Below, one piece after another: positions 5,121-44,669 of a stretch of 64,000 nt of DNA. The notes beneath the pieces were generated by a model. It had not been told where the DNA came from, searched no databases, and saw nothing but the letters and a program-made list of their open reading frames with translations. The stretch comes from Anolis carolinensis (lineage: Eukaryota): positions 14,744,703 through 14,808,702 of the forward strand of contig NW_026943819.1 in the NCBI RefSeq assembly GCF_035594765.1. The letters are read 5' to 3'. A program made the position numbers and the translations under genes. Position 1 is the first letter of the stretch. Every line of letters starts with the position of its first letter.

Positions 5121-7588
5121 TTTAGCTTTGTTTTTGGTTTTTTGGTTTTTTCTCTCTCTCTCTCCCTTTTTGATCCTTTTTTAATCGCAGTTTTCCTACT
5201 TTCTATACAATCAAATGTTCTCACTCACTGGGAAACAAAGAGTAAATATATGTTGATAGCCTTTGATGGGCTCAAATGTCTAGTTCCATTCCAAAGAAAG
5301 AAAGGGTTTCAAAAAACAAAGGTGTAAAGTTCAAGGGACATAGTCGATGTCTACGTTTAGAATAAAGGAGATTTATGAAGTACTTTGAGCTTCTGTTTTT
5401 GCAGGTAGCAATCTCTCAGCTTTAAGTGAGACAAAAAGGTTTAGCAAAAGATTACCCCCATCTCTGGAACAATGACTCTGGCTGATTGCTCTGGCTAAAA
5501 GGAAAGATCGCTCAAAGGGTCTGCCTTCCTTTCCTGTCCGGGCAATCTCTCTTGTTGGGAGGTGAATCCCTGGGCCTATTTGGTTATATTTTGATAAAGA
5601 AGTGTATACATTTTATAAATCTATGAATTAGATATAGTGTACAGACAGATAAAATCATTAAGTACAGATTCAAGTATGATAGCTGTTGCTGGTTTTTAGT
5701 CTTGGATCAAGCTTTGAATGTCTGGGCATGGAGACAATGGGAGTATGTAAATATAGAGTCCAGGGTGCCGGGAACATTGGGTGATGATTTCCCAAGTCTA
5801 TTCTTTGGCTGGCCAAATAGAGAAATGCCCTAAGATGTTTAGTGAACTTTTGTCCAATGTCCAGGGTCCCACCTGAAGCAGTATCAGATGGGAAACCATA
5901 AGCCCATCAGTTGAACCATTTGTCTCTGAAGTAGTCCATGCTGCACCTCTTGCCTTGAGGCACAAATAAGATATTTTTGATTTGTTGTCTTTTTCCCTGG
6001 GTCAATTAGAGGTTAAACAGTGTTGCTTGTCTTCAGAACATATTAATATATATTTAATATATTTAATAGGTTTATTAGAATAAAGTGGAATAAAATATAG
6101 TTCATAGGAGGCTAGCGGAGAACAGCAAGATCTGGAGGTGTCAAAATGGTGGCGCATGAGCATGCATGAAGAGGGTGGAAAGGCTGTTTGTTTTCCTTTT
6201 AGTTATTTAGCTCCTGAGGGTGTCCTATGTTCAACAACAATTATTTTATCTACATGGGAATGCAGATATAAATACTGGTTGCATGAACAAGTTGACAAGC
6301 ATGAACTGGTTGCATGAACAGGGCCCGGGCTGTGGTGCAGGCGGGAGAGCAAGCCAGTGCAATTAACTGCAATGAATCACTCTGACCAGGAGGTCATGAG
6401 TTCGAGCCCGGCTCGGAGCCTATGTTTGTTTGTCTTTGTTCTATGTTAAAAGGCACTGAATGTTTGCCTATATGTGTAATGTGATCCGCCCTGAGTCCCC
6501 TTCGGGGTGAGAAGGACGGAATATAAATGCTGTAAATAAAATAAATAAATAAATAAATAAATACATGTGTTTCTATCACTGTTTGAGCTTCCAGTCCACC
6601 CTAAATCGGTTTATCCATATTCAAATCATCACTATCTAGATAAGTATTGTCTGAAGACAATTTTACATTTTTATTAAACTAAAAATGGAGGCAGTTACCT
6701 GGAGCATTGGAATCTTGATGTTTTGCTACAAGAATATTATTCACCAGAAAAAAGTATTTCTGGCTAACATCCCAAATTCTGTACAGGTAGGGGTTATCTA
6801 CTTTGACAGGCACATTACCTAGGTAAGAAAATAATATGTATTAAAGAGATATGGACGCAGACAATAAATACATACCCTCCTGCTGTCCCAATTTGCCAGG
6901 GACAGTGCTGATTAATTCTCTTTCAAATTACTTATTCAACTGCTTTTAAAACATCCCAGTTTCTTCTCCCCACACTTTCTACCATTCTTCCACTTATTTA
7001 CTTGCTGCAAACTGAGATCAACCTGCAAAAGTAAAAAGATCTAACAGACCAGGGGCTGAGGTTTGTTTGAGAGAGATTAACATTCCTCAACCTATTTAGT
7101 AAAGGTAAAGGTTTTCCCCTGACGTTAAGTCCAGTCGTGACCAACTCTGGAAGTTGGTGCTCATCTCCATTTCTTAGCCGAAGAGCCAACGTTGTCTGTA
7201 GACACCTCCAAGGTTATGTAGCCGGCATGACTGCATGGAACGCTGTTACCTTCCCGCTTCAGCGGTACCTATTGATCTACTCACATTTGCATGTTTTCAA
7301 ACTGCTAGGTTGGCAGGAGCTGGGGCTAACAGCGGGTGCTCATTCTGCTCCCGGGATTTGAACCTGGGACCTTTTGGTCCACAAGTTCAGTAGCTCAGTG
7401 CTTTAACACACTGTGCCACCAGGGGCCCCTTTCAACCTATTTAAGTGACATCAGATAGGAAAGTAGTTTTCACCTGACATTGGCTTCTTAGGGAATAAAT
7501 CTGCTATTTCCTCATTCCAAGTCTTCTTATGGCACTCCTTCTCCTCCTGTGGTTTCGGCGTATGAGATGTGGATCCCTTAGAGTCCAT
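1668..7588 (-). CDS. IL-1 family cytokine paralog D (IL-36Ra/IL-38/IL-1Ra-like), 193 aa
   Basis: Exons 7588-7474, 6818-6699, 3655-3522, 1880-1668; all GT-AG, 582 nt in frame. Protein: [193 protein letters not shown]. Contains the IL-1 signature [13 protein letters not shown]. Candidate poly(A) signal at 1532-1537. Confidence 0.9.
2890..3001 (-). mobile_element. CR1 LINE 3' end fragment
   Basis: (TTCTATGA)n-type tail and 3' UTR matching the longer CR1 copy at 8892-9385. Confidence 0.75.
3048..3352 (-). mobile_element. R4/Dong-clade LINE 3' fragment
   Basis: Reverse complement of the 3' part of the 50420-51198 element; abuts (ATT)n at 3002-3047. Confidence 0.7.
6321..6562 (+). mobile_element. 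tRNA-derived SINE with L2-like 3' tail
   Basis: B-box-like GAGTTCGAG (~6398). 3' end CCCTGAGTCCCCTTCGGGGTGAGAAGG followed by (TAAA)n; the same tail recurs at ~20190 and 44890-44930. Confidence 0.6.
7101..7429 (-). mobile_element. Sauria-type SINE
   Basis: (ACCTTT)n tail on the minus strand; flanking repeat TCAACCTATTTA. Related copies at ~15935-16208, 41750-42070 and 60745-61077. Confidence 0.8.
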
Positions 7589-7643
7589 TTTATCAGGTCT
7601 ATTCTTCAGCTCACCTCTCTTTCTTACTCTCAGATTTACTGGG

Positions 7644-43000: not shown

Positions 43001-44669
43001 GTCAACAAACCCCATGATGCAATGGCAGGTCTTCTTATCTAGCCCAAGAATGTATGAATCTGGACAAGTGGAAGGTTGAGATGAAAACACAGAACCAAAG
43101 TCGCAGCAGTTACCTGGCATATTAGCATTTTGAAATTTTGCTAGTAGCATGTTGCCCATCAGGAAAAGGAACTTCTGGCTAATATCCCAAATCCTGAACA
43201 ACCAGGGTGTCCTTAACTTGGCGGTTTGAAGCTCATAATCCCCTGGGGAGGAAATATGTATATAGTACATGCATTTCATATCCACATAGAGTAAAGTCTC
43301 ACTTATCCAAGCTAAACGGACCGGCAGAAGCTTGGATAAGCGAATATCTTGGATAATAAGGAAGAATTAAGGAAAAGCCTATTAAACATCAAATTAGGTT
43401 ATGATTTTACAAATTAAGCACCAAAACATCATGTTATGCAACAAATTTGACAGGAAAAGTAGTTCAATACGCAGTAATGTTATGTTGTAATTACTGTATT
43501 TACGAATTTAGCACCAAAATATCACGATATATTGAAAACATTGACTACAAAAATGGCTTGGATAATCCAGAGGCTTGGATAAGCGAGGCTTGGATAAGTG
43601 AGATTCTACTGTATATGTATAAACAAGCAAATAAAAAAATTCTAAGGAAGCATCAAAAGGCTGGAAGGCGGCACATTTGAAAAAGTAACTCACTACGAGA
43701 CCTTTTAAGACAGATGTAGGAAACTTTGAGCCCCATTTCCCCCACCCAAAAAAACCCTAGTTATTGCCCTCATCTCCCCACTCTACCCTCTCATGAAGCA
43801 AATAGAATTATATATAACGTGTATATAATTTTGTCTTGGATGTACAATTTTGCATAGAGGACCATTGAGTTGAGAAGGATCAATACACACTTCAGTGGGT
43901 ATTGAAATTCGATTCCCTATGCAGTCTTTCAGCATTTGAATTATTTCTTTAGTGTGAGATGCGCTTGGTTAATGGAGCTATATTTGTAAGGGATAATTAT
44001 ATAATGCATGACTCTAAATAATATGTGACACTAAACATTTAAAGATATCTGCACAGTTTGGGGATTTCTACAAGTCTAGAAAAAGGTGGCAACTTGGGTC
44101 AGAGGACTTAAAAATGACAAGAACAGCCCTTTCGAGGGATTCAATTACAAAGTGGCAACAGGGGCAATGGTGATATCCAAAAATATCATTTCACTTTTTG
44201 TTAAAGACTTAGCAATTTCACATAATCCAACATTTCACAGAGGAAAGTCAATACTTCAAACAACATCAGAATGTGATCAATAGGGAGGGGGGGGGAATTA
44301 TGAAGAAGAACACATAAGAAATGGGTAGCTGCAGCAATTTGCTTTTGCCAGTTTCTGTCTTTTCTCCCCACTGCACTTTTTATAAGTTTGCAGCAATTGA
44401 GCTCAAAACAATGGAGGGAAAGTGAGATGAGAAAAACCAGGACCTTCTAAAAGTCACTGAAAAGGTTGGTCAACACAAGATTAATTGTGGCTGTCATGCC
44501 AAATCAGGACAGTAGAAGGGGATGCAATCTAATACATTTCTTAACAATAGAGACAGCAATTATATGTCTGTCTTCTCTATTTGAATACTAGCAAATTAAT
44601 ATTTAAACCTGGATCTGACTCTCGACTCTTGTCAGAAAATAAAGCAGCCACTTCCTGGTCCCAAGACAT
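40045..44669 (-). CDS. IL-1 family cytokine paralog A (IL-36/IL-36Ra/IL-1Ra-like), 184 aa
   Basis: Exons 44669-44609 (acceptor boundary 44691), 43242-43114, 42560-42427, 40275-40045; 555 nt in frame. Protein: [184 protein letters not shown]. Confidence 0.9.
41750..42339 (+). mobile_element. Sauria SINE (41750-42070) followed by a tRNA-related SINE (42079-42339)
   Basis: ACCTTTACCTTTACCT tail; second element has GGTTCGAATCCC and an A-tail. Confidence 0.8.

What the first reader, a model, noticed from the sequence alone, without database searches (positions are those of the whole stretch)
6770..43242. Hypervariable linker between the motif and the trefoil: a possible panel of protease 'bait' regions
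Known: mammalian IL-36 cytokines are activated by cleavage 9 residues upstream of the aliphatic-X-Asp motif. Applying that rule to IWD here gives different junctions: A LQTA|KLRT, B RRIRAP|RETE (polybasic, with an RxxR site), [18 protein letters not shown]. The linkers share essentially only the Pro five residues before IWD, although both flanks are conserved. Inference: the array may work as a protease-sensing alarmin system, with a conserved inhibitory module, a variable cleavable linker and a cytokine core, each paralog tuned to different host or pathogen proteases.
Basis: inference. Interest (0 to 1): 0.7.

Follow-up and report, generated by a model that had tools for sequence, protein, structure and literature searches.

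The report
Lizard IL-36-like pro-cytokine gene array
Six side-by-side anole immune-signal genes, mostly filed as receptor blockers, carry a conserved short helix, a fast-changing linker and an interleukin-1-type core, and are likely protease-activated relatives of IL-36/IL-37, a group usually described as mammal-only.

Summary
Four intact interleukin-1-family genes lie in the window and two more just left of it. Each encodes a conserved acidic helix, a linker of 20-43 residues and a beta-trefoil. The linker is coding (spliced contig for D; RefSeq models for A, C, D, F) and hypervariable: 39% identity against 83% in the core across 15 close pairs. The 9-residue register is structurally valid. 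Two corrections: the conserved Pro opens the mature first strand and is shared across the IL-36 family, and bird IL-36RN-like proteins, outside this array, are just as variable there (32% against 82%). The helix is likely the last helix of the pro-IL-1beta pro-domain and has weak predicted docking on the core. Evidence for one protease per paralogue is only borderline. Protease sensing by IL-36 is already published for mammals. The more interesting result is lineage: tree, a two-residue deletion and exon layout place the array with mammalian IL-36 agonists and IL-37, not with the antagonists it is mostly named after, but tree tests do not reject the antagonist placements.

The parts
44609..44669 (-). 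Gene A coding exon 1: start, WxxExxxLF helix (44637-44663), first part of linker; phase-1 donor
   Evidence: model equals P0002 (XP_003224250.1)
43114..43242 (-). Gene A exon 2: variable linker (43208-43242), P-x-L-F-R, IWD at 43192, strands 1-3; predicted cut between 43220 and 43219 (LQTA|KLRT)
42427..42560 (-). Gene A exon 3 (134 nt, trefoil middle)
40048..40275 (-). Gene A last coding exon (PF00340 hit)
33711..33819 (-). Gene B coding exon 1 with helix (33727-33753); start Met uncertain
   Evidence: predicted only, no database protein found
32855..32989 (-). Gene B exon 2: basic linker with two RxxR motifs, IWD at 32933; predicted 9-residue cut between 32961 and 32960 (IRAP|RETE)
30911..31044 (-). 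Gene B exon 3 (134 nt)
28661..28882 (-). Gene B last coding exon (PF00340 hit)
17913..18129 (-). Gene C coding exon with helix (17983-18009) and a linker part holding a 10-nt direct repeat 24 nt apart
   Evidence: model lies within P0013 (XP_008114231.1)
15027..15164 (-). Gene C exon 2: linker, IWD at 15105; predicted cut between 15133 and 15132 (NVIQ|VEKE)
12795..12928 (-). Gene C exon 3 (134 nt)
11161..11391 (-). Gene C last coding exon (PF00340 hit)
7474..7588 (-). Gene D coding exon 1 with helix (7493-7519; predicted helix residues 24-29, pLDDT 89 for residues 21-30)
   Evidence: model equals P0187 (XP_008114232.2)
6699..6818 (-). Gene D exon 2: linker, IWD at 6777; predicted cut between 6805 and 6804 (NVPV|KVDN)
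   Evidence: spliced contig
3522..3655 (-). Gene D exon 3 (134 nt)
1671..1880 (-). Gene D last coding exon (PF00340 hit)

Best explanation
The six genes encode interleukin-1-family proteins with a short N-terminal extension, and are likely latent cytokines of the IL-36/IL-37 lineage that would be switched on when a protease cuts the fast-evolving linker about nine residues before IWD. SHOWN: exon structure, coding linker, conserved helix, variable linker, trefoil family membership. INFERRED STEPS: (1) the helix is a remnant of the last pro-domain helix of pro-IL-1beta and folds back on the trefoil, blocking receptor binding; (2) the proteins, which show no signal peptide, leave damaged cells; (3) proteases that prefer hydrophobic residues at P1 and P4 (neutrophil elastase or cathepsin G type, and many microbial proteases; preferences recalled) cut most squamate family members, while trypsin-like enzymes could cut B after Arg; (4) the mature protein signals through the lizard IL-36 receptor. 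The linker works as a tolerant, exposed cleavage zone. Sequence drift, perhaps with some positive selection, shifts preferences between paralogues without a strict one-protease-per-gene code.
For: Register: model residue K44 of D, nine before IWD, aligns with IL-36gamma residue 18 (4ize, Z 21.8, rmsd 1.8, 146 aligned) and IL-1beta residue 1. Lineage: the 47 squamate rows form one clade (100/99) that groups with mammalian IL-36, IL-37 and a turtle/gecko group at 90/94 among 88 rows and 84/94 among 45 rows. The span from A-x-D to strand 4 is 32 residues in 40/47 squamate rows, 6/6 mammalian IL-36, 2/2 IL-37 and 9/9 turtle/gecko rows. It is 34 in 7/7 complete IL-36RN rows and 5/6 IL-1RN rows, and 35-39 in 9/9 IL-1beta rows. 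The genome has a separate IL-1RN-like gene whose exon begins at a splice acceptor directly before IWD. The array instead has the layout of the genome's IL-1beta: helix exon, phase-1 intron, linker plus A-x-D exon. Helix: it aligns with the IL-1beta DxDLxxIF segment in a full-length profile comparison; that segment is helix 101-111 in a pro-IL-1beta model. It is the best in-register window for the squamate profile in 7/15 IL-1beta-like precursors and among the top two in 13/15. Complex prediction: 0.58 against best control 0.02, runs agree in at least 95% of contacts, partner pLDDT at least 57; the mark was reached by 51 of 78 solved and 2 of 108 mismatched pairs, but a pass at 0.60 or under is weak. 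Cleavage zone: hydrophobic at -10 in 28/43 and at -13 in 67%, against 5% at -10 in 38 birds. Mammalian precedent: PMC7758160, PMC9280268, bioRxiv 2025.02.22.639629 (passages; IL-37 starting at Lys53 is an IL-36R agonist).
Against: AU tests do not reject grouping the array with IL-36RN (p 0.057), IL-1RN (0.18), IL-38 (0.145) or all antagonists (0.158). The direct pairing with mammalian IL-36/IL-37 has only 80/64 and 63/40 support. The best PDB sequence hits are IL-1Ra and IL-36Ra, and mouse IL-36Ra is the top structural match (Z 22.8, one unit above IL-36gamma). The beta-4/5 loop resembles IL-36Ra and IL-38, not IL-36gamma. One IL-1RN-like row also has the 32-residue span and the IL-38-like row has 33, so the deletion is not unique. 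The beta-11/12 region is short, like agonists (24 against 29 in mammalian IL-36Ra), but gecko and turtle IL-36RN are also short (25), so it does not decide. The helix comparison alone is not significant (P 0.18), and Pfam IL1_propep hits 0 of 13 short-form proteins. Within the six anole genes only 3/6 have a hydrophobic residue at -10 (A, P, Q, V, A, E). No cleavage, latency or signalling was measured.
Confidence: 0.55

Rival explanations
1. One reading: the linkers are a diversified bait panel, each paralogue held by selection to a different host or pathogen protease.
For: The two residues before the predicted cut are identical in 8/8 comparisons of four anole orthologue pairs, against 12/24 at other linker positions (Fisher p 0.012; permutation p 0.016 at the fixed site, 0.098 for any adjacent pair). 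They differ between paralogues (1/15 pairs identical at each position). E/F linker: 14 non-synonymous to 1 synonymous difference over 17 codons; 19.5 to 1.5 when positions -5 to -1 are added (p 0.013-0.038).
Against: In 11 other sister pairs the same two positions match in 4/22, less than the rest of the linker (22/66). The linker-only E/F test is not significant (p 0.06-0.13); its non-synonymous rate exceeds the core synonymous rate at p 0.049-0.23, depending on the assumed transition bias. It rests on one pair; the other 14 pairs have a core dS of 0.76 or more and mostly unequal linkers. Bird IL-36RN-like proteins are equally variable. Mouse and human IL-36gamma are activated by the same pathogen filtrates despite different site sequences (PMC7758160, passages).
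Confidence: 0.2
2. Some or all six are receptor antagonists, as most database names say; linker cleavage would then switch on inhibition rather than alarm.
For: RefSeq names are IL-36 receptor antagonist or IL-1 family member 10 for A, C, D and F. The IWD-x-x-QK start resembles IL-1Ra, and the top sequence and structure hits are antagonists. AU tests allow it. No separate IL-36RN-type gene was found in this assembly, so an IL-36R antagonist, if one exists, may be inside the array.
Against: The best trees and the 32-residue span place the array apart from IL-36RN and IL-1RN. A separate IL-1RN-like gene exists about 15 Mb away. The names vary among close relatives: 5 of the 47 squamate rows are named IL-36 alpha-like.
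Confidence: 0.15
3. The linker is a neutral spacer left over from the IL-1beta pro-domain; the proteins act uncut or inside the cell, and the helix serves another partner.
For: Linker length ranges from 13 to 43 residues in 43 squamate sequences. A local 10-nt duplication accounts for part of C's long linker. A neutral rate is not clearly rejected for E/F.
Against: The non-random hydrophobic pattern at -10 and -13, the structurally exact 9-residue register and the weak predicted docking of the helix on its own core.
Confidence: 0.1

Closest known systems
Mammalian IL-36 alpha/beta/gamma and IL-37 (IL-36R agonists needing N-terminal processing; PMC7758160, PMC9280268, bioRxiv 2025.02.22.639629, passages)
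   Same: Trefoil fold, tandem paralogues, short pro-segment, Pro five residues before A-x-D, 9-residue register, 32-residue beta-1 to beta-4 span, divergent cleavage regions already proposed to widen protease detection.
   Different: The lizard proteins keep a conserved acidic helix that is not evident in the six mammalian IL-36 and two IL-37 rows examined. Their beta-4/5 loop is IL-36Ra-like. They form a squamate-only clade (47 rows), so there is no one-to-one orthology. Activity is untested.
Bird, turtle and gecko IL-36RN (chicken IL-36RN; Gibson et al. 2014, PMC4090809, passages and section 14)
   Same: Long N-terminus with a D-x-[DE]-M-x-x-L-F helix, a variable linker of 24-30 residues in birds and Pro at -5.
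   Different: Separate clade (98/95), 34-residue span, and no hydrophobic residue at -10 (5% in 38 birds).
Pro-IL-1beta
   Same: Same exon layout around the helix and linker in this genome; the helix aligns with its last pro-domain helix.
   Different: The rest of the pro-domain is absent; Pfam IL1_propep does not hit; no Asp lies at -10 in A-F.
IL-1 receptor antagonist (IL-1RN)
   Same: IWD-x-x-QK start; best sequence hit in PDB.
   Different: The genome's IL-1RN-like gene lies elsewhere (C10, about 29.76 Mb), with a splice acceptor directly before IWD and a longer beta-3/4 loop.

Membership tests
IL-1 family (PF00340) | IL-1 domain and 12-strand beta-trefoil | tested here: met
   Pfam E 7e-13 to 7e-17 for A, C, D, F; last exons of all six over the cut-off; model pLDDT 87.7, Z 20-23 to IL-1-family structures
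IL-36 agonist / IL-37 lineage | Groups with mammalian IL-36/IL-37 on the tree | tested here: inconclusive
   Best trees yes (90/94 and 84/94 with the turtle/gecko group; 80/64 and 63/40 direct); AU does not reject alternatives, p 0.057-0.18
IL-36 agonist / IL-37 lineage | Short beta-3/4 loop (32-residue span from A-x-D to strand 4); a marker derived here, not a published criterion | tested here: met
   40/47 squamate rows including A-F, 6/6 IL-36, 2/2 IL-37; 0/7 complete IL-36RN, 1/6 IL-1RN
IL-36 agonist / IL-37 lineage | A-x-D motif with the mature start nine residues upstream | tested here: met
   Register only: residue 44 of D aligns with IL-36gamma 18. Mouse IL-36Ra residue 1 aligns there too, so this does not separate agonist from antagonist
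IL-36 agonist / IL-37 lineage | Inactive precursor activated by proteolysis | not testable with these tools
   Needs protein assays; only weak predicted helix docking
IL-36 agonist / IL-37 lineage | Signals through IL-36R with IL-1RAcP | not testable with these tools
   PMC4090809 section 14 states the anole has IL-1RL2; not checked here
IL-36 receptor antagonist (IL-36RN) | Long beta-11/12 loop of mammalian IL-36Ra, the main antagonist determinant (PMC6596353, passages) | tested here: not met
   24 residues in five of six paralogues parsed (C has equal length in the alignment) against 29 in rodent IL-36Ra; gecko and turtle IL-36RN also lack it (25)
IL-36 receptor antagonist (IL-36RN) | Groups with IL-36RN orthologues | tested here: inconclusive
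   Not in the best trees; p-AU 0.057
IL-1RN | Intron directly before IWD, as in this genome's IL-1RN-like gene | tested here: not met
   The spliced contig of D uses the upstream phase-1 acceptor; models of A, C, F agree
Diversified protease-bait panel | Positive selection on the cleavable region | tested here: inconclusive
   One usable pair (E/F): p 0.06-0.13 for the linker, 0.013-0.038 with positions -5 to -1
Diversified protease-bait panel | Site kept within orthologues and different between paralogues | tested here: inconclusive
   8/8 in anole pairs, 4/22 in other sister pairs
Pro-IL-1beta-type pro-domain remnant | Homology of the helix to the last pro-IL-1beta helix | tested here: inconclusive
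   Same exon position and phase, aligned in full-length comparison, P 0.18 alone

The most novel reading that the evidence does not exclude
Lizards and snakes have their own expanded IL-36 agonist family, mostly mis-named as antagonists, so the IL-36/IL-37 agonist lineage predates mammals. Its members are kept off by a minimal helix inherited from pro-IL-1beta, and paralogue-specific cleavage sites under diversifying selection make the array a protease-sensing panel.
Probability: 0.25. Interest if true: 0.75.

Novelty: new variant of a known kind. Interest (0 to 1): 0.5.

Why it matters
Three papers state that IL-36 agonists are mammal-only (PMC5861070, PMC12108812, PMC9020223; passages). Gibson et al. 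argued that the IL-36 receptor in chicken and anole implies an ancestral agonist that had not been found (PMC4090809, section 14). This array gives six concrete candidates and a defined truncation to test. One survey already dates IL-36alpha to birds and reptiles (PMC8226699, passages), and some squamate records are named IL-36 alpha-like, so the idea is not unprecedented. If the helix is the latency element, it is a natural minimal version of the IL-1beta pro-domain and makes the question of how that pro-domain silences IL-1beta directly testable.

Tried and rejected
(1) Linker as intron: A-D all have YAG just before the IWD codons, at the place of the IL-1RN acceptor. Rejected for D by the spliced contig and for A and C by RefSeq models; B is untested. 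(2) One gene with alternative 5' modules sharing 3' exons: one search missed the 3' exons because of my repeat mask; rejected. (3) Extra exons between helix and linker: none in the D contig. (4) Transcript evidence for A and B was not obtained. For C only unspliced pieces appeared in the four runs laid, which is no evidence either way. No holder was on record as RNA. (5) Furin as the activator of B: RxxR cuts would leave 11 or 8 residues before IWD, not 9, and furin is a secretory-pathway enzyme (recalled). An 8-residue Glu start after Arg would mirror the cathepsin G product of IL-36beta (PMC9280268, passages), so a trypsin-like cut remains open. (6) Loop and single-residue agonist markers do not decide in reptiles. 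(8) Pfam IL1_propep found nothing on the short forms. (9) The fold search covered only residues 44-193, so the helix has no tested structural match. (10) Earlier scan notes held nothing on this locus. (11) Towne et al. 2011 is not held and is cited second-hand. PMC13736523, PMC13167797 and PMC5727156 (passages) did not bear on the question. No supplements were read; the supplementary trees of PMC5861070 and PMC12108812 may already include these squamate proteins.
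Full report
LOCUS. The window is G000:C10:14744703-14808702. It holds four complete minus-strand genes, A-D, each with four coding exons and GT-AG introns. Two more paralogues lie to the left, with IWD at about C10:14739082 (E) and 14716476 (F). Models A, D and F equal P0002, P0187 and P0037, and C lies within P0013; these are Anolis carolinensis RefSeq proteins named IL-36 receptor antagonist or IL-1 family member 10. B and E have open frames, but no database protein was found for them in three searches. Gibson et al. 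list four anole genes IL-1FA-D of uncertain identity (PMC4090809, section 14); I could not establish whether these are the same genes.

OBSERVATION. The four junctions are as quoted. One contig of run X10 is a spliced product of D and shows the helix exon joined directly to the upstream acceptor of the IWD exon, so the linker is coding. I compared 43 of the 47 squamate rows; four with no helix in their annotated N-terminus were left out. The linker is 13-43 residues long. In 15 close pairs, identity is 39% at -6 to -12, 87% at -5 to -1, 88% in the helix and 83% in the core. The conserved Pro is not part of the variable linker: it begins P-[RW]-L-[YF]-[RK], the first strand of the mature fold, and is common to IL-36, IL-37 and bird IL-36RN-like proteins.

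REGISTER AND CLEAVAGE ZONE. The AlphaFold2 model of D (mean pLDDT 87.7) has a helix at 24-29 and a less confident linker (pLDDT 68 for residues 31-40). Residue 44, nine before IWD, superposes on IL-36gamma residue 18, IL-1beta residue 1 and IL-36Ra residue 1. The rule itself is taken second-hand from PMC7758160, PMC4090809 and bioRxiv 2025.02.22.639629 (passages). Across squamates, -10 is hydrophobic in 28/43 (shuffle mean 10.8; none of 20000 shuffles reached it at any position from -6 to -12), -13 in 67%, and -11 is Pro in 14/43. After pruning to 19 lineages the count at -10 is 13/19 (p 0.00025). The rows remain related, so these p-values overstate. This pattern suits elastase- and cathepsin-G-type proteases (preferences recalled), but it could also be a packing surface. 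In the six anole genes the residue at -10 is A, P, Q, V, A, E.

IS IT A PANEL? For: P2 and P1 are identical in 8/8 comparisons between A. carolinensis and A. sagrei orthologues, against 12/24 elsewhere in the linker (p 0.012; 0.098 allowing any adjacent pair), and nearly all differ between paralogues. The E/F linker has 14 non-synonymous and 1 synonymous difference, a non-synonymous rate above the core's (p 0.002) but only borderline above neutral (p 0.06-0.13). Against: 4/22 in 11 other sister pairs. Also, 38 of 48 bird IL-36RN-like proteins that could be parsed show 32% linker identity against 82% in the core, so this degree of variability is a general property of the segment. The concept is in print for mammals: three cytokines with distinct cleavage sites may widen pathogen detection (PMC7758160, passages), and IL-1 family members act as activity recognition receptors (PMC9280268, passages).

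THE HELIX. The WxxExxxLF motif continues as D-x-[DE]-M-x-x-L-F in turtle, gecko and bird relatives. It aligns with the DxDLxxIF segment of IL-1beta precursors, which is predicted helix 101-111 in echidna pro-IL-1beta. The comparison of N-termini alone is not significant (P 0.18), though it gives the same register; the segment is the top in-register window in 7/15 precursors and in the top two in 13/15. In this genome's IL-1beta the segment ends its exon at a phase-1 intron, and the next exon carries linker and A-x-D and ends in phase 1, exactly as in A-F. Folding residues 11-41 of D with residues 44-193 scored 0.58 against a best control of 0.02, with runs agreeing in at least 95% of contacts and partner pLDDT at least 57. 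The tool rates this as weak: 51 of 78 solved and 2 of 108 mismatched pairs reached the mark, passes at 0.60 or under are more often wrong than right unless likely beforehand, and peptides are untested.

LINEAGE. On the trefoil core (88 rows, 140 columns) the squamate proteins form one clade (100/99) apart from IL-36RN and IL-1RN, and group with mammalian IL-36, IL-37 and a turtle/gecko group (90/94). A 45-row subset gave 84/94. AU tests did not reject any of four antagonist groupings (p 0.057-0.18). A two-residue deletion in the beta-3/4 loop gives separate support: span 32 in 40/47 squamate, 9/9 turtle/gecko, 6/6 IL-36 and 2/2 IL-37 rows; 34 in 7/7 complete IL-36RN (one partial row dropped) and 5/6 IL-1RN rows; 33 in the IL-38-like row. 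Labels of unnamed rows are my reading of their sequence. The genome has a separate IL-1RN-like gene and IL-1beta near C10 29.6-29.8 Mb, and three searches found no separate IL-36RN-type gene (lower bounds). Against this reading, the best sequence and structure hits are antagonists and the beta-4/5 loop is IL-36Ra-like.

NOVELTY. Four of the six genes have named RefSeq proteins, and the mechanism class is known. Nine paper searches showed no paper on the squamate array's N-termini, on its placement with IL-36/IL-37, or on the helix as a pro-IL-1beta remnant. The library lacks most subscription journals and I read no supplements. PMC5861070, PMC12108812 and PMC9020223 (passages) call IL-36 agonists mammal-only; PMC8226699 (passages) dates IL-36alpha to birds and reptiles.

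VERDICT. The bait-panel reading is plausible but borderline (about 0.2 in its strong form). The best reading is latent IL-36/IL-37-lineage cytokines with a tolerant cleavage linker and a likely inhibitory helix (0.55). New variant of a known kind; interest 0.5.

Noticed in passing
G000:C10 about 14714900-14742400 (loci L011-L013), left of the window: Two further intact paralogues, E and F, with equal linker length; each has an A. sagrei orthologue. A UniRef model of F uses an alternative upstream exon that skips the helix exon (P0189), and E has a similar upstream stretch.
   Followed up: partly
window 43193-43196, 32934-32937, 15106-15109, 6778-6781 (minus strand): A-D have CAG plus one base before the IWD codons, the same place where the genome's IL-1RN-like gene has its splice acceptor; E and F lack it. 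Possibly the site at which the IL-1RN intron arose. Use of it after the helix exon would shift the frame.
   Followed up: partly
L013:5221-9999 (minus), between E and F: A 1593-residue open frame of a Ty3/gypsy LTR retrotransposon with gag, protease, RT, RNase H and integrase domains.
   Followed up: partly
L016:9440-10000 (plus), left of F: Exon with a Fez1 domain (PF06818); likely an LZTS-family gene flanking the array (name recalled).
   Followed up: partly
G000:C10:29607700-29611500 and 29757900-29762700 (L022-L027, L030): IL-1beta and an IL-1RN-like gene about 150 kb apart on the same contig, about 15 Mb from the array.
   Followed up: partly
G000:C5:35263703-35263843 (L010): Weak PF00340 hit (E 0.035, below the cut-off); possibly IL-18, not checked.
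   Followed up: no
P0053, P0054, P0057, P0073, P0215-P0218, P0224, P0227: A second reptile clade (turtles, geckos, a girdled lizard) with the helix and the 32-residue span also groups with IL-36/IL-37; not found in this assembly.
   Followed up: partly
window 54657-55407: A 375-base exact tandem duplication; may be a recent duplication or an assembly artefact.
   Followed up: no
P0012 (gene D isoform X3): An annotated isoform replaces the end of the trefoil after FESAEFP with a different tail, which would break the last strands.
   Followed up: no
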